A stretch of DNA of 26,960 nt, from IMG/VR virus record IMGVR_UViG_3300031420_000498, one strand, 5' to 3'. The translations under genes were made by a program, and so were the position numbers. This stretch comes from a virus. Below the pieces are notes generated by a model that worked only from the letters and a program-made list of their open reading frames with translations, was not told the origin of the DNA and ran no database searches. This document shows, piece after piece, positions 8,508 to 24,806 of the stretch; the stretch's first letter is position 1; each line of letters opens with the position of its first letter.

Positions 8508-8567
8508 TGGATCAGATTCCACCGGGGAGCGGCCCTGAGGGCCTCGCTAAGCGACCTGGAAGCATTT

Positions 8568-8771
8568 CTGGAGTCATCATGTGGGTAGAGAGACTTTCGG
8601 CCTCAGGTAGGCGTCTGCTGCGCTTCGATAGAGTAGCTCTACGCCAGCTTCCCGTGGCTCACCTGAGACTCCAGTCCCCGCGCGATTGGAGATCCTCTAG
8701 GAAGGTGCTTAGCATCCGGGATCTTTCAGCTAGAGCGTGTCTCACTCTCTTTCGACCGGCGCGGGCAGTCT
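8568..8771 (+). ncRNA. Candidate structured leader RNA (multi-branch)
   Basis: cccgcgc 8677-83/gcgcggg 8759-65, gatcc/ggatc and ggtgc/gcatc inner stems, ctggagtc 8568-75/gactccag 8667-74, ctcaggt/acctgag. Confidence 0.45.
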
Positions 8772-8784
8772 AAGGAGATTCCCC

Positions 8785-9447
8785 ATGGTATCAGACCACG
8801 CACTCAAGCTCGCTATTCGAGAGCAGATGGATCGCTACAACAGAAGAGCCCTTGGAGCTGGCATTGCTCCATTGAGCTACACACAGGCGCGGGCTCGCTT
8901 CATCGAGAGCATGTATCCCTCTGTGGAAGAGATGACTCCGATCCGACAAGCCCAGGTGGCGGCAGGCATCTCCGTGCTCGAAGCTGGCAGAGACCTCATC
9001 ATCTGCGGTGGGACCGGATCTGGCAAGACAACCATCGCTCAGGCTGTGAGCAATCGCGCCTCCAACGGCCTCTACATCGCCAGCCAGCAGATCGAGTACG
9101 GCAAGGAGCTTCGGAGCTCCCACTACATCCAGTGGAGCGGGGATAAGCGTGAGCGAGTCCTGAACGCTGACAGCGTCTGCATCGATGAGATCAGAGGCAA
9201 TGACGAGCTCGAACCGGCCCGGCTCAGGGATGGTAGGCCGCTCGCTGTGGTCCTTCACGCTATGCACCCAGACGACGCAATCTGGAGGCTTGAGAACATG
9301 GGGCTTCAGAGAGAGTGGAAGAATCCAGCATTCCTTTACTGCCGCTGGGAGGACAGGCTCACGGATGAGGTGAAGCGAGAAATCGCGGAGAAGAAGGCTA
9401 GAGATCAAGCCCGCCTGGATAGCGTTCAGCCGATAGTCAATGGGTAA
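8785..9447 (+). CDS. P-loop NTPase, minimal CpaF/VirB11/PilT-like
   Basis: TAAGGAG RBS; Walker A GGTGSGKT, Walker B VCIDEIRG, and LHAxxPxxAxxRL resembling the His box of secretion ATPases. Confidence 0.7.
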   Translation: MVSDHALKLAIREQMDRYNRRALGAGIAPLSYTQARARFIESMYPSVEEMTPIRQAQVAAGISVLEAGRDLIICGGTGSGKTTIAQAVSNRASNGLYIASQQIEYGKELRSSHYIQWSGDKRERVLNADSVCIDEIRGNDELEPARLRDGRPLAVVLHAMHPDDAIWRLENMGLQREWKNPAFLYCRWEDRLTDEVKREIAEKKARDQARLDSVQPIVNG

Positions 9448-10522: not shown

Positions 10523-10606
10523 GGTCCTATCCTACCGATGATCGGTCAGAATCAGCGGTCCTGTGGGCAGAAAACGCGGTAGGATCGACGCTATAGCATG
10601 GTTGCA

Positions 10607-10635
10607 TTGCGTCCGCAGGAAAGTTCATGTAAGGT
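10607..10635 (+). promoter_or_regulatory. sigmaA-type promoter
   Basis: TTGCGT-N17-TAAGGT. Confidence 0.55.
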
Positions 10636-10696
10636 AGCGCTGACAGTTCTCAACAGTAGACCGGTGTCCACTAGCGCCGGAGCGAAGGATCCCACC

Positions 10697-11356
10697 GTGA
10701 GCGGAGCACTCGTGCTAACCCACGGTCTTCCTGGAGCCGGAAAGTCCTCCCTGGCCGACTTCCTCCAGGCTCGCTTCGGGAACATCGTGAGCATCGCCGA
10801 GCGTGATGAGATTCGCCTCGAGCTCTTCGGAGCCCAGTACTTCATCCTCGATCAGTATCTTCCGGTCAACGAGGATCGAGTCACCGAGCTGCAGCATGCC
10901 CGCATCCGAGAGGAGCTCGCTCAGGGTCAGCTCGTCGTCGCCTCTGACACCAACCTCGACCCTCGCCGGATCCGAGAGCTCGTCTCCATCGCTCTAGAGT
11001 TCGACGCTCCGGTCTTCGATCTCCACCTCGACATCTCTCAGGCGGAAGCCAAGGCGCGCAACGAGCATCGAGCCGAAGGTGGAGGCCGGCTGGTTCCTCA
11101 GGATGTGATCGATGACATGGCCGTCTACGGCTACTCGGGCGAGCGCATTCGCCACTTCTCGGTGCGCTTCGATCCTACGCTCCCCGAGGGCTTCGAGGTG
11201 CTCATTCGGGACCGCCGGAAAAACGACCTGGAGCTCCTCCAGGAGATCGCCGTCCTCGACAGATTCCTCGAATCCTACGACCGGCTGACTCCAGGACTGT
11301 CTCTAGGCTCGAACGCCTCCACCATGCTCCCTTCCGAAAGTAGTAGGATCTCGTGA
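10697..11356 (+). CDS. Polynucleotide-kinase-like P-loop kinase (AAA_33 / T4 Pnk kinase domain type)
   Basis: GTG after GAAGGA; GLPGAGKS, RDEIR, VVASDTNL, RNxxR...RLVPQDVI lid. Confidence 0.8.
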   Translation: MSGALVLTHGLPGAGKSSLADFLQARFGNIVSIAERDEIRLELFGAQYFILDQYLPVNEDRVTELQHARIREELAQGQLVVASDTNLDPRRIRELVSIALEFDAPVFDLHLDISQAEAKARNEHRAEGGGRLVPQDVIDDMAVYGYSGERIRHFSVRFDPTLPEGFEVLIRDRRKNDLELLQEIAVLDRFLESYDRLTPGLSLGSNASTMLPSESSRIS

Positions 11357-18319: not shown

Positions 18320-18808
18320 ATGGAGCTCAACCACCAGGGCTACCTGATCCACTACCTTAGAGGCTCTGGCTCTCAGATCGGCGATCTCCACATCACCGTG
18401 CTCGGAGACATCGATGATCCGGCGAAGACCGGCCTAGAGGCACTGGAACCTCTGGTGCTCGGCGCACCCCGTGGTGCCATTGAGCTCATTCCCCAGGGAG
18501 TTGAGGCTTTCGGTCTCGGTGGGGAACATCGAGCCCTGACCTTTGGCGATCCCACGGGTCGGCTCCAGGAACTCCATGAGTACTTCCTCACCGGTATCGA
18601 GGAACTGGGGTTCAGGAGCTCCCGACCTCAGTGGACCGGCCCAAACTTCCGGCCTCATATGACCCTGGGTAGTAGCGTTCTTCAGGCCGCGAGCCACCTC
18701 AAGCTCGACTCGGTGACCCTCGTGGACTCGATCTTCGACGGCGACTGGAACTTCCTCCGGGGCGAGCCTCTGGCCACAGTTGAGCTCGGGGAGCTCGACC
18801 GGGGCTGA
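18320..18808 (+). CDS. 2H phosphoesterase (2'-5' RNA ligase / LigT-like family)
   Basis: Two HxT motifs, LHITV and FRPHMTL, at typical spacing. Confidence 0.8.
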   Translation: MELNHQGYLIHYLRGSGSQIGDLHITVLGDIDDPAKTGLEALEPLVLGAPRGAIELIPQGVEAFGLGGEHRALTFGDPTGRLQELHEYFLTGIEELGFRSSRPQWTGPNFRPHMTLGSSVLQAASHLKLDSVTLVDSIFDGDWNFLRGEPLATVELGELDRG

Positions 18809-22649: not shown

Positions 22650-23615
22650 ATGGTATCCATCGATCCAGAGCTCCGGCTGAAGCCAGTAGTCGCCTTCGAT
22701 GTGGACGGAGTGGTTCGAGTTCGAAAGATCGAGATCGACGGGCTTGACCAGGGCGAGCTCATCGGAGCTGACATCACCCTGAAGCGTGAGGAGTACCCGG
22801 ATCTCTTCCACGGCAAGCCTCGCTGGGACGAGACTGGAACGAGCTCTCGCACAGAGCACTTCTCCCGGGCTGCAGTCGATCTCATCGGCGACCTCTCCGA
22901 GGACCCGCGCACAGAACCTGTCTGGGCGACGACCTGGCAGCGCTGGGCGAACTACTACTTCAGCTCAGCCCTGGAGCTCCCCGAGCTGCCGGTGGCGGTG
23001 AAGACGCTAGAGCCCGAAGAGCTCAACTACGCCCACTGCTCACCCTCCTGGAAGACCCAGCAGCTCTCCAGGCAGTTCGATGGCAGGCCGCTGATCTGGC
23101 TCGACGACAACATGCCCGATCGGCCGGGCGAGGATCTCACTGAGCTCAGAAGGCCCATCGATCGGGCACTTACTAAGAGCTTCCGGGTCAACCCCTGGAC
23201 TGGAATCACTCCAGCCGATGTCGAGGAGATCCTCGGCTGGATCGAACTTGCCAGCACCGAGGCCGGTCAACAGGAGCTTCGAGCTCAGCGTCAGGTCGAG
23301 CTCAAGGAAGAGAAAAAGACCCGGGCTCGCCAGGACCGTCAGCGAGGGAGGCAGCACGAGATCTTCATGGCTATCCGAGACAGACTCCTCGAGCTCTACC
23401 CTGAGCAGAGGCGCTTCGCATCGGAGGTTGCGAGCGCGGGCCAGTACAAGGACGGGCTCACGGCTGAAACGCTACGCTATGCGCTCAAGCGCAACTCAAT
23501 CGAGGCCGATCCTACTGAGCTCGCTGCGAGCCTCCGGGTGCCTCGCTATCATCTCCGCGGTGTCGATGAGACAGAAGATCAGGATGCCGGGCTCGACGAG
23601 CGATACAACTTCTAG
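22650..23615 (+). CDS. HAD phosphatase, 'Swiss Army Knife' RNA-repair-type (HAD_SAK), with C-terminal helical extension
   Basis: FDVDGV, VWATTW, WK, LIWLDD, VNPWTGIT motifs. Confidence 0.8.
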   Translation: MVSIDPELRLKPVVAFDVDGVVRVRKIEIDGLDQGELIGADITLKREEYPDLFHGKPRWDETGTSSRTEHFSRAAVDLIGDLSEDPRTEPVWATTWQRWANYYFSSALELPELPVAVKTLEPEELNYAHCSPSWKTQQLSRQFDGRPLIWLDDNMPDRPGEDLTELRRPIDRALTKSFRVNPWTGITPADVEEILGWIELASTEAGQQELRAQRQVELKEEKKTRARQDRQRGRQHEIFMAIRDRLLELYPEQRRFASEVASAGQYKDGLTAETLRYALKRNSIEADPTELAASLRVPRYHLRGVDETEDQDAGLDERYNF

Positions 23616-23777: not shown

Positions 23778-24806
23778 ATGGCCAAGACACCCAAGCGCGG
23801 CAGCTATCTCACTCTCGAGGATGTGCGGGTCTTCTACGACGCGAAGTCGGACACCGTATCGCTCACATCTGGCGACAGGGATCTTCCTGAGGCTGGCGGT
23901 TTGAAGATCGACATCAGCCCGGGAACTCAGGCTGAGAGGCAGCTCCGGGAGCTCCTCAAGGCTAAGGGCGTACTCAGCTGGGATCCCTGGCCCAAGACCA
24001 CCAGGGAAGACACCTTTGGCCGCATCGTAAGCTCTCCCGAAGATCGACTCCAGCTCGGCACCAACATCAGTGGAGAGCCGGTGGAATGGGATCTCAACAC
24101 CTACCGAAACCTCTGGGTCCACGGGGCGACCGGTGGCGGAGCTTCTCTCCTGTCTCGAGCGGCTATTCAGCATGGCTTCGTCCATGGCTGGGAAGTCTTT
24201 GGCATCGATCCCCGTCGAGTAGAGCTCAGCGAAATCAGCAAGTATCCCGTGGGTAGAACAGTAGCCAAAGACACCCAAGAGGCATTGAACCTCCTCGATA
24301 GCCTAATCGGGCTTGCCGAAGAGCGCATCAGCTTCCTGGAAGGCCAGAATGTGCTGAGTACTCGAGATCTTCCCGAAGATCTCCAGCCACGCAGGGTACT
24401 CCTCATCATCGACTCATTTGAGCTCATCCTCGAGTCCGCCAACACCGATGATCAGGTGAAGCTTCTCGCAAGTCTCGAAAGGCTCAGCTGGTCAGGCAGC
24501 CCAGTGGGAGTTCATATGCTCTTGGGCTCTAAGACGCAGCCTCGAGACCTCCGGCGTGCCGATTCCGATAGGCTCAAGAAGATCCAGAGCATCTGTGCCC
24601 ACATCGTCTGCGGTAACTACTACCAGGATCAGCTCCCTGAAGATCTGCGAGAGCGCTACAAGCCCAATCGTGGTCGAGGCATGGGGCGAGCTCAGTTCGT
24701 CCTCGGAGGGCCGAGAGCTGAGGCCACCGAGTTCCAGCTAGGGCTTGCTCTGGACGATCCTCGACAGTTCATCGAGGCACTGCGCGCCCATCGACGGGGG
24801 TACTGA
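23778..24806 (+). CDS. FtsK/SpoIIIE-like ATPase domain protein with degenerate Walker motifs
   Basis: LG...GEPVEWDL...LWVHGATGGGAS, IDPRRVEL, LLIIDSF, GVHMLLGS...QP. Confidence 0.7.
   Translation: MAKTPKRGSYLTLEDVRVFYDAKSDTVSLTSGDRDLPEAGGLKIDISPGTQAERQLRELLKAKGVLSWDPWPKTTREDTFGRIVSSPEDRLQLGTNISGEPVEWDLNTYRNLWVHGATGGGASLLSRAAIQHGFVHGWEVFGIDPRRVELSEISKYPVGRTVAKDTQEALNLLDSLIGLAEERISFLEGQNVLSTRDLPEDLQPRRVLLIIDSFELILESANTDDQVKLLASLERLSWSGSPVGVHMLLGSKTQPRDLRRADSDRLKKIQSICAHIVCGNYYQDQLPEDLRERYKPNRGRGMGRAQFVLGGPRAEATEFQLGLALDDPRQFIEALRAHRRGY

What the first reader, a model, noticed from the sequence alone, without database searches (positions are those of the whole stretch)
8568..9447. Second structured leader with the same closing stem, upstream of a minimal secretion-type ATPase (copy 2)
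The 277-nt gap contains CCCGCGC/GCGCGGG, a compensatory variant of CCUGCGC/GCGCAGG at 2046/2153, enclosing branched stems. Bases 8666-74 can pair either upstream (8568-75) or next to the RBS (8767-71), which is switch-like. The protein starts ALKLAIREQM...LSYTQARARF, echoing the 2187 gene, and is fused to a shortened CpaF/VirB11-like domain with no secretion genes adjacent.
Basis: partly seen in the sequence, partly recalled or inferred. Interest (0 to 1): 0.7.

Follow-up and report, generated by a model that had tools for sequence, protein, structure and literature searches.

The report
Frozen kissing-loop mRNA leader before ATPase
The gap in front of this small ATPase gene is a real, uncatalogued folded mRNA leader of about 145 bases that hides the ribosome-binding site. 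It is almost letter-for-letter identical in related giant mobile elements, and it always travels with one short N-terminal protein tag.

Summary
CCCGCGC (8677-8683) and GCGCGGG (8759-8765) are present and pair, and the helix covaries in relatives: CCCGCAC/GUGCGGG and GCCGCGU/ACGCGGC. It is not a nested closing stem. It is a loop-loop (kissing) contact between hairpin 8669-8691 and the apical loop of a hairpin (8747-8777) that sequesters the Shine-Dalgarno AAGGAG.

Bases 8641-8784 are 94-99% identical in nine distinct related metagenomic sequences, against 55-75% in the flanks. Conservation starts 7 nt after a -10-like GATAGAGT box, so this is a 5' UTR.

ORF 8507-8773 is not coding. It shows no codon periodicity, and the substitutions in its conserved part are about 8 nonsynonymous to 1 synonymous.

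The proposed switch pairings are not conserved. Rfam has no match. A covariance model finds only this leader type, not the leader at 2013-2186, which is a different family built on the same plan.

The N-terminal tags of the two proteins are homologous (hhalign 94%). The protein is a minimal PilT/VirB11/CpaF-like P-loop domain, below family thresholds.

The most likely function is translational control, possibly autogenous through the tag.

This scan had already noted related tag-linked leaders elsewhere in this genome (e1-5355410, e1-5355411, e1-5625438).

The parts
8627..8634 (+). -10-like promoter box GATAGAGT (hexamer TAGAGT). The transcription start is inferred about 7 nt downstream, at ~8641.
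   Evidence: GATAGNRT occurs 5/5 times on the + strand in the window and 15/15 in window+L020+L021, mostly in intergenic gaps. In both leaders, and in L025, L022 and L026, conservation begins 7 nt after the box. The consensus sigma-70 scan finds nothing. The promoter is an inference.
8641..8784 (+). Ultraconserved 5' UTR leader RNA, about 144 nt.
   Evidence: 94-99% identity per 50-nt window against 55-75% background over 10 kb of synteny. Nine distinct sequences show 10 variable columns in the 138 nt up to the SD. No Rfam hit at E<=10. CM R2 scores are 160 bits here and 63-102 bits for the leaders of distant homologs.
8643..8658 (+). H0: 5'-terminal hairpin GCCA/UGGC.
   Evidence: 4 pairs, 3 with compensatory changes, 100% of cells paired (helix 1).
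8665..8697 (+). H1: hairpin (core stem 8669-8676 / 8684-8691) that presents the 7-nt loop K = CCCGCGC (8677-8683).
   Evidence: The MFE and centroid of 8660-8700 give this hairpin with exactly the heptamer as loop, z -2.1. 11 pairs, 10 with compensatory changes (helix 2). L025 presents CCCGCAC as a 7-nt loop in the same way.
8700..8717 (+). H3: invariant hairpin GGAAGGUGC-NNN-GCAUCC with an AA bulge. It is the signature of this leader type and a candidate protein-binding site.
   Evidence: The stem letters are identical in window, L025, L022 and L026, and only the triloop varies. 100% paired, but with no covariation because the stem is invariant (helix 4).
8747..8777 (+). P5: hairpin in which the anti-SD CUCUUU (8747-8752) pairs with the SD AAGGAG (8772-8777). 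Upper stem GAC/GUC. The apical loop 8757-8767 carries K' = GCGCGGG (8759-8765).
   Evidence: It is the MFE and centroid of 8741-8790, and is already present in the centroid of the whole gap. The analogous SD-sequestering hairpin is the MFE in L022 and L026. 9 pairs, 95.8% paired, 3 with compensatory changes (helix 5).
8785..9447 (+). Gene for a 220-aa protein. Residues 1-about 45 form an N-terminal two-helix tag (MVSDHALK...LSYTQA). Residues about 56-190 form a minimal PilT/VirB11/CpaF-like P-loop domain.
   Evidence: Translation. AF2 mean pLDDT 78. Foldseek top hits are PINA, PilB, VirB11, GspE and CpaF, E 7e-7 to 1e-5. Profile against PDB: HP0525 E 7e-4. Pfam T2SSE scores 22.2 bits, below the 24.9 cut-off.
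8507..8773 (+). Open frame across the gap. Judged not to be a gene.
   Evidence: Variable columns by codon position are 20/23/24 in the 5' half and 4/4/2 in the conserved half. Two neighbouring real genes give 30/21/85 and 23/12/76. Indels in the 5' half are not multiples of 3, and the conserved motif TCATC[AG]TGTG is read in three different frames. No uORF is shared by the four leader lineages.

Best explanation
Bases ~8641-8784 are the 5' untranslated leader of the ATPase mRNA, transcribed from a promoter whose -10 box is GATAGAGT.

The RNA folds into:
- a terminal hairpin (H0);
- a hairpin (H1) that displays the heptamer CCCGCGC as its loop;
- an invariant bulged hairpin (H3, GGAAGGUGC-NNN-GCAUCC);
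- a 3' hairpin (P5) whose lower stem pairs the Shine-Dalgarno AAGGAG with CUCUUU, and whose apical loop displays GCGCGGG.

The two loops kiss (7 bp). This locks the ribosome-binding site in the closed hairpin, so the leader sets how often the gene is translated.

This leader type is found in front of genes whose products begin with the same two-helix tag (M-V/T-x-N/D-H-A-x-K...S-Y-T-x-A). The most likely effector is therefore a protein that recognises H3 or the kissing helix, possibly the tag itself (autogenous control).

Shown: conservation, the helices, their covariation, and SD sequestration in the predicted folds.

Inferred: the transcription start, the direction of regulation, and the identity of the effector.
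For: - Conservation: 94-99% identity confined to 8629-8784, with a sharp 5' edge just after the -10-like box.
- Helices: five helices, 37 pairs, 96.5% of cells paired against 84.9 +/- 1.3 in shuffles (0/500). 19 pairs have compensatory changes against 5.7 +/- 1.8 (0/500). Slid controls give 29-47%.
- Kissing helix: it was not in the covariance model, yet it is 100% paired with 3 double changes. A perfect complement arises by chance in 0.2-0.7% of shuffles per leader.
- Hairpins: H1 and P5 are the MFE or centroid folds of the local segments.
- Substitutions: by my mapping of the variable columns onto the model, 12 of the 13 variable columns among orthologs (10 up to the SD, 3 in the SD-AUG spacer) fall on unpaired positions. 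That is about 0.1% by a hand binomial with 49% of positions unpaired.
- Strand: G-U pairs in H3 and P5 place the structure on the sense strand.
- Coupling to the tag: distant ATPase homologs with MTxNHAxK tags carry the same leader type.
- Two tags, two leaders: the 2187 family has a divergent but homologous tag and its own leader family with the same loop-to-loop design.
Against: - Only four independent lineages of this leader type were available (window clade, L025, L022, L026), so statistical power is low. The nested helices were counted on an alignment fitted to the model.
- The MFE of the whole leader is no better than shuffles.
- L025's local MFE prefers another SD-occluding fold.
- One ortholog (L003) has a mismatch inside H1.
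- L026 has 6/7 pairs in the kissing helix.
- Near-total invariance of the unpaired half is more than a translational operator usually needs and is unexplained.
- No experimental transcription start, and no evidence on any ligand or binding protein.
Confidence: 0.72

Rival explanations
1. The gap encodes a small protein (ORF 8507-8773, about 88 aa) that is translationally coupled on both sides (TGATG overlap upstream, stop TAA inside the SD). The conservation reflects that protein, or a regulatory uORF.
For: The frame is open in every related locus. In the window, L001, L003, L008 and L009 its ATG overlaps the upstream stop as TGATG. The stop codon overlaps AAGGAG.
Against: There is no 3-periodicity of substitutions (20/23/24 and 4/4/2), while neighbouring genes give 30/21/85 and 23/12/76. 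Substitutions in the conserved part are about 8 nonsynonymous to 1 synonymous. Indels are not multiples of 3, and a conserved DNA motif is read in three frames. No gene caller called it in the related loci. No uORF is shared among the four leader lineages. There is no Pfam hit.
Confidence: 0.05
2. The frozen 150 bp is a DNA-level element. It could be a recombination homology arm for swapping the highly variable ATPase allele, or a replication, partition or transfer site. On this reading its identity among elements is kept by gene conversion rather than by selection on RNA.
For: The leader is far more conserved than any riboswitch-like element needs to be, including its unpaired half. The gene behind it is among the most diverged in the neighbourhood: 47-57% aa identity against 75-80% for the next gene. 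The leader at 2013-2186 behaves the same way in front of a gene that drops to 45% identity. L008 carries a tandem duplicate of the ATPase.
Against: The edge of conservation coincides with the -10 box and the inferred start, not with a gene boundary. DNA 10 nt upstream is about 55% identical. Compensatory changes in five helices, with G-U pairs, point to a sense-strand RNA. More distant elements keep the fold while the sequence diverges. The two readings are not exclusive.
Confidence: 0.13
3. It is a riboswitch or RNA thermometer that senses a small molecule or temperature, with no involvement of the encoded tag.
For: The SD-sequestering hairpin plus a tertiary loop-loop contact resembles riboswitch expression platforms and thermometers. 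Many unpaired nucleotides are invariant.
Against: No Rfam family matches. The leader type follows the N-terminal tag type rather than any metabolic function: two tag families have two leader families. The downstream genes are ATPases of unknown role in ORFan neighbourhoods.
Confidence: 0.1

Closest known systems
Autogenous translational operators in mRNA leaders (E. coli rpsO/S15 pseudoknot, S4 alpha-operon pseudoknot, thrS operator)
   Same: A cis-acting 5' leader whose tertiary or pseudoknot fold includes or occludes the ribosome-binding site. The presumed effector is a protein encoded downstream. (Comparison from established knowledge; not tested here.)
   Different: No sequence or covariance-model relation (Rfam: no hit). 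Here the leader is coupled to a portable 35-45 aa N-terminal tag fused to different payloads, not to a ribosomal protein or synthetase. Protein binding is untested.
ColE1 RNA I / RNA II kissing complex bound by Rop (Rom)
   Same: Seven-nucleotide hairpin loops that pair over their full length. Rop is a small helical-hairpin protein that recognises the loop-loop helix, and the tag here is also predicted as a helical hairpin (H4-25, H32-41). This is an analogy from my own knowledge.
   Different: The contact here is intramolecular and lies in an mRNA leader that controls translation, not replication primer formation. There is no sequence relation. Binding of the tag to the kissing helix is speculation.
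Leader at window 2013-2186 and its paralogs (before the P0001-like genes)
   Same: The same -10 box and spacing. A 5' hairpin, then a hairpin with a 7-nt loop (CCUGCGC), then the complement (GCGCAGG) in the loop of a hairpin near the start codon. It is equally frozen among orthologs. The downstream tag is homologous.
   Different: It lacks the GGAAGGUGC-NNN-GCAUCC hairpin and has its own invariant block (...GGCGGCCG). The GUGGA/UCCAC hairpin does not contain the SD. It is not detected by models R1 or R2 at E<=10.
PilT/VirB11/CpaF/GspE secretion ATPases and the archaeal PINA (RuvB-like) ATPase
   Same: The RecA-like P-loop core matches by fold (Foldseek E 7e-7 to 1e-5) and weakly by profile (HP0525 E 7e-4; tblastn to a CpaF family protein at 30% identity). 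Walker A GGTGSGKT and Walker B CIDE are present.
   Different: Only 220 aa. There is no PAS-like N-terminal domain. Pfam T2SSE is below cut-off. Walker A is degenerate in some relatives (SEKT, SGRT). No secretion partners were found among the ORFs scanned.

Membership tests
Any Rfam family (release 15) | Score at or above the family's gathering threshold, or at least E<=10 with permissive filters | tested here: not met
   0 matches in the whole window at gathering thresholds. 0 matches in 8450-8850 at E<=10.
Tag-linked kissing-loop leader, GGAAGGUGC type (uncatalogued; defined here by models R1 and R2) | Hairpin loop heptamer complementary to a heptamer in the apical loop of the SD hairpin, about 26 nt before AUG | tested here: met
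   K lies at positions 33-37 and K' 26-27 nt before AUG in the window, L025 and L022. All seven pairs are 100% paired across the aligned leaders (L026's first pair falls on a gap column; by sequence L026 has 6/7), with 3 double changes.
Tag-linked kissing-loop leader, GGAAGGUGC type | Invariant bulged hairpin GGAAGGUGC-NNN-GCAUC | tested here: met
   Present at 8700-8717 and in L022, L025 and L026.
Tag-linked kissing-loop leader, GGAAGGUGC type | Followed by a gene whose product starts M-[VT]-x-[ND]-H-A-x-K ... [SN]-Y-T-x-A | tested here: met
   Only ATPase-type payloads were recovered with my tag profile.
Leader family of window 2013-2186 ('copy 1') | Detectable by a common covariance model or shared invariant blocks | tested here: not met
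   R1 and R2 give no hit at E<=10 on the window copy, or on the three L020 and five L021 paralogs. Only the architecture and the -10 box are shared.
Type II/IV secretion ATPase (Pfam PF00437 T2SSE; VirB11/CpaF/PilT) | Score above the Pfam gathering threshold | tested here: not met
   22.2 bits against the 24.9 cut-off, E 6.5e-5. NCBIfam TrbB and VirB11 hits are far below their cut-offs.
Type II/IV secretion ATPase | RecA-like C-terminal domain with Walker A and Walker B | tested here: met
   GGTGSGKT at 75-82 and CIDE at 132-135. The fold matches PilB, VirB11, GspE and CpaF.
Type II/IV secretion ATPase | N-terminal PAS-like domain and hexameric assembly with membrane partners encoded nearby | tested here: not met
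   The AF2 model has only three helices before the first P-loop strand. Pfam scans of about 30 window ORFs found no secretion component. Hexamer formation is not testable here.
Protein-coding gene (ORF 8507-8773) | Excess of third-position and synonymous change; frame-preserving indels | tested here: not met

The most novel reading that the evidence does not exclude
Leader and tag form one self-recognising, portable module. On this reading the two-helix N-terminal tag, perhaps as a Rop-like helical bundle, binds the kissing-loop helix or the invariant H3 hairpin of its own leader type. All proteins carrying one tag type would then jointly feed back on the translation of every mRNA carrying the matching leader. 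Different tag types (MVSDHALK type, TNTNLK type) would have co-evolved with different leader types. In the ACGT-free giant elements this RNA-peptide pairing would be so constrained that the whole leader is frozen.
Probability: 0.2. Interest if true: 0.85.

Novelty: new variant of a known kind. Interest (0 to 1): 0.62.

Why it matters
This is a structured cis-regulatory RNA that no catalogue lists, with a covarying loop-loop lock on the ribosome-binding site. It comes as a package (promoter, leader, N-terminal tag) placed in front of different payloads on very large, almost entirely unannotated mobile elements.

If the tag binds its own leader, this would be a modular, transferable RNA-peptide regulatory pair. 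That would be of interest for the biology of giant plasmid- or phage-like elements and as a compact orthogonal translation control part.

The near-perfect freezing of about 140 nt, next to DNA that has diverged to 55-75% identity, is itself an unusual signal that needs an explanation.

Tried and rejected
Searches that found nothing:
- Phage and plasmid databases by DNA and by protein. The only result was two weak hits on plasmids, one under a gene annotated as CpaF family protein.
- IMG/VR pattern and tag scans gave nothing or chance hits.
- The GTDB genome scan with the 19-mer core gave 4 hits that share only the 19-mer, about the number expected by chance.
- No whole genome is held for the window. 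Metagenome records cannot be searched by handle.
- The tag profile matched 1/401 genomes sampled from the phylum of G001 (the Haloactinopolyspora alba genome) and 3/401 from its class.
- Model R2 had no hit in 151 genomes of one Actinomycetes family.

Tests that gave no support:
- Thermodynamic stability of the whole gap, the core, and the antisense strand is not significant.
- BLASTP of P0001 against P0003 found no similarity. Only the profile comparison did.
- RNAalifold on the chromosomal short leaders gave no clear consensus.
- A literature search for a described equivalent returned nothing relevant.

The tag profile search in the 5.8-billion protein set returned only 17 proteins, mostly the same ATPases. 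I therefore could not reproduce the breadth of payloads reported in earlier notes.

Full report
**What is at the coordinates.** All likely genes around the finding lie on the + strand. The upstream gene ends at 8507, and the ATPase gene runs from ATG 8785 to 9447 (220 aa, P0003). The 277-nt gap contains CCCGCGC at 8677-8683 and GCGCGGG at 8759-8765. The earlier gap contains CCTGCGC at 2046-2052 and GCGCAGG at 2153-2159. The description is accurate. Minimum-free-energy folding gives no support on its own. The z-scores against dinucleotide shuffles are 0.00 for the whole gap, -0.02 for the 1860-2192 gap, -1.15 for the core and -0.63 for its antisense. Rfam 15 has no match in the window at gathering thresholds and none in 8450-8850 at E<=10.

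**The decisive observation is comparative.** P0003 has seven relatives in the 5.8-billion protein set, at 47-87% identity, all from metagenome assemblies on contigs up to 297 kb. I fetched their loci. Synteny is conserved, and all have a gap of about 250-320 nt before the gene. In the alignment of these gaps, the last ~155 nt and the first five codons are almost invariant, while the 5' half is diverged and carries indels. A sliding-identity profile over 10 kb of synteny shows 94-99% identity at window 8629-8778, against a background of mostly 55-75%. The edge on the 5' side is sharp. Nine distinct sequences differ at only 10 columns in the 138 nt up to the Shine-Dalgarno. The same holds for the leader at 2013-2186, even against a locus whose downstream protein is only 45% identical.

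**Where the conservation starts.** In both leaders the invariant stretch begins 7 nt after a box GATAGNRT (8627-8634 and 1999-2006). That box occurs only on the + strand: 5/5 in the window and 15/15 with L020 and L021, mostly in intergenic gaps. The six bases between the box and the invariant part vary. I read this as a -10 element, a discriminator and a transcription start near 8641. The frozen part is then the transcribed 5' UTR. This is inference. The generic sigma-70 scan finds nothing.

**Is it a small gene?** The frame 8507-8773 is open in every relative. In the window, L001, L003, L008 and L009 its ATG overlaps the upstream stop as TGATG, and its stop overlaps the SD. It does not evolve as a coding sequence:
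- In the variable half, variable columns by codon position are 20/23/24.
- In the conserved half they are 4/4/2, and about eight of the nine substitutions change the amino acid.
- Two neighbouring real genes give 30/21/85 and 23/12/76.
- Length differences between lineages are 13, 23 or 24 nt. A conserved DNA motif, TCATC[AG]TGTG, is read in three different frames.
- No uORF is shared among the four leader lineages.

**The fold.** Local folding gives two robust hairpins.
- Bases 8669-8676 pair with 8684-8691 and leave exactly CCCGCGC as a 7-nt loop (z -2.1).
- Bases 8747-8752 (CUCUUU) pair with the SD AAGGAG at 8772-8777. An upper stem GAC/GUC sits on top, and an 11-nt apical loop contains GCGCGGG. 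This hairpin is the MFE and centroid of the local segment and is already present in the centroid of the whole gap.

It is a kissing or pseudoknot contact, not a nested stem.

**Distant relatives.** An exhaustive profile search found remote ATPase relatives of the same size, beginning MTQNHALK, MTSNHALK or MVANHAHK. Their leaders (L022, L025, L026) share the following with the window:
- the -10 box and its spacing;
- a 5' hairpin;
- a hairpin presenting a heptamer;
- the invariant hairpin GGAAGGUGC-NNN-GCAUC(C/U);
- an SD-sequestering hairpin with the complementary heptamer in its loop.

The heptamers covary: CCCGCGC/GCGCGGG (window), CCCGCAC/GUGCGGG (L025), GCCGCGU/ACGCGGC (L022) and GCCGCGU/ACGCGGG (L026, 6 of 7). 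A perfect complement arises in only 0.2-0.7% of shuffles per leader.

**Covariation counts.** A covariance model built from the window clade alone finds L025 (E 2e-8), L022 and L026. A second model finds all of them at 63-102 bits. On the model-guided alignment:
- 37 pairs in five helices are 96.5% paired, against 84.9 +/- 1.3 in shuffles (0/500).
- 19 pairs carry compensatory changes, against 5.7 +/- 1.8 (0/500).
- Slid controls give 29-47%.
- The loop-loop helix was not part of the model and is 100% paired, with three double changes.

The caveats are that there are only four independent lineages, and that the nested helices were counted on an alignment fitted to the structure. I mapped the ortholog substitutions onto the model myself. 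12 of the 13 variable columns (10 up to the SD, 3 in the SD-AUG spacer) fall on unpaired positions (hand binomial about 0.001). One, in L003, breaks a pair in H1.

The upstream arm, 8569-8575 TGGAGTC, is not conserved (TGCAATC, TGCGGTC, TGCGATC) and lies upstream of the inferred start. The pairing of AGACU with AGUCU next to the RBS has no counterpart in L025. I found no conserved alternative fold.

**Relation to the first leader.** The 2013-2186 leader has paralogs in front of every P0001-like gene in L020 and L021. These carry a covarying 5' hairpin, a covarying hairpin with the loop CCUGCGC, and GCGCAGG inside the loop of a GUGGA/UCCAC hairpin. Neither R1 nor R2 detects any of those copies at E<=10. 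They also lack the GGAAGGUGC hairpin. They are a different family, not a second copy. The N-terminal peptides are homologous (hhalign probability 94.2%, E 1.1e-7 over 34 columns), although BLASTP sees nothing. Two tag types thus go with two leader types.

**The protein.**
- AF2 (pLDDT 78) gives three helices followed by a RecA-like core.
- Foldseek's best PDB matches are PINA, PilB, VirB11 (HP0525), GspE and CpaF.
- The family profile hits HP0525 at E 7e-4.
- Pfam T2SSE is just under its cut-off, and NCBIfam TrbB and VirB11 hits are far under theirs.
- Walker A and B are present, but Walker A is degenerate in two relatives.
- There is no PAS-like N-domain. Pfam scans of about 30 window ORFs found no secretion partner.

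'Minimal secretion-type ATPase domain' is a fair description of the fold. Membership of the family is not established.

**Host and spread.**
- The element matches nothing in the phage and plasmid collections, and its leader core and tag pattern match nothing real in IMG/VR.
- A tag-like N-terminus with its own loop-to-downstream 8-bp complement (CCCUAGCC/GGCUAGGG) precedes a DUF2087 gene in one genome of the class of Haloactinopolyspora.
- A related N-terminal motif, LKKLARERMERTGESYT, heads chromosomal BtrH_N/DUF4872 genes in 33 of 301 genomes of that genome's family.

This points to Actinomycetes hosts. R2 itself found nothing in 151 genomes of that family.

**Mechanism.** I commit to a translational control leader. 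The SD is held in P5, and the H1-P5 kissing helix locks it. The strict coupling of leader type to tag type makes a protein effector, possibly the tag itself, more likely than a metabolite. The direction of control and the effector are unproven. The near-complete invariance of the unpaired nucleotides is not explained by this model. Recombination that uses the leader as a homology arm for the unusually variable downstream gene is a live, non-exclusive alternative.

**Earlier notes of this scan.** These describe a pseudoknotted, RBS-hiding leader before MTxN-tag genes elsewhere in this genome. They also describe the first leader as a kissing-loop family, with this one being 'a different leader built on the same plan'. 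My independent tests agree with both. I could not compare sequences with the MTxN copies, because that DNA was out of reach. I could not reproduce the reported breadth of payloads.

Noticed in passing
window 1-26960: The tetranucleotide ACGT is completely absent (0 found, about 97 expected from base composition). The more distant locus L022 does contain ACGT.
   Followed up: partly
window 1999-2186; L020 1116-1281, 2526-2733, 5478-5667; L021 891-1082, 2022-2223, 3238-3445, 6310-6497: A paralogous leader family lies before the P0001-like genes, some of which carry a C-terminal DnaG-type zinc ribbon. It has the same -10 box, a covarying 5' hairpin, a hairpin with loop CCUGCGC, and GCGCAGG in the loop of a GUGGA/UCCAC hairpin. 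Its orthologs are frozen in the same way as leader 2.
   Followed up: partly
L008 5001-6364: The ATPase gene is tandemly duplicated. The first copy has Walker A GGTSSGRT (K to R). P0010 in L007 has GSVFSEKT. ATP hydrolysis may therefore not be essential for the family's role.
   Followed up: no
window 5107-7113: Three consecutive genes of about 213-263 aa are diverged paralogs of each other, and of four genes in L020 and three in L021 (28-45% identity in tblastn). None has a Pfam match.
   Followed up: no
window 3654-4427, 10598-11356, 18320-18808, 22650-23615: A scattered RNA-repair-like gene set: a class II aaRS-like protein (PHROG 'histidyl tRNA synthetase', E 3e-30), an AAA_33 polynucleotide-kinase-like protein, a 2H phosphoesterase/2'-5' ligase-like protein, and a weak HAD_SAK_2 hit. 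An FtsK/SpoIIIE-like gene lies at 23778-24806.
   Followed up: no
L034-L061 (Actinomycetes genomes), about 90 nt upstream of the tag-like start: Chromosomal BtrH_N/DUF4872 genes begin with a related N-terminal motif, LKKLARERMERTGESYT. Many have a short leader after a GTAGAAT box containing a GYGCGGG-loop-CCCGC(GC) hairpin. This uses the heptamers of leader 2's kissing helix, but as a local hairpin. RNAalifold gave no clear consensus.
   Followed up: partly
window 728-776 and 4516-4561: Two perfect 19-nt inverted repeats. One overlaps the start of the 729 gene. The other lies inside the nominal ORF 4476-5027, whose homolog in L020 is called on the opposite strand.
   Followed up: no
window 8569-8588 and the aligned positions in L001-L009: A motif TG[CG]NNTCATC[AG]TGTG is conserved in the otherwise diverged 5' half of the gap, about 50-75 nt upstream of the -10 box. 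It is read in three different frames, so it acts at the DNA or RNA level. Function unknown.
   Followed up: no
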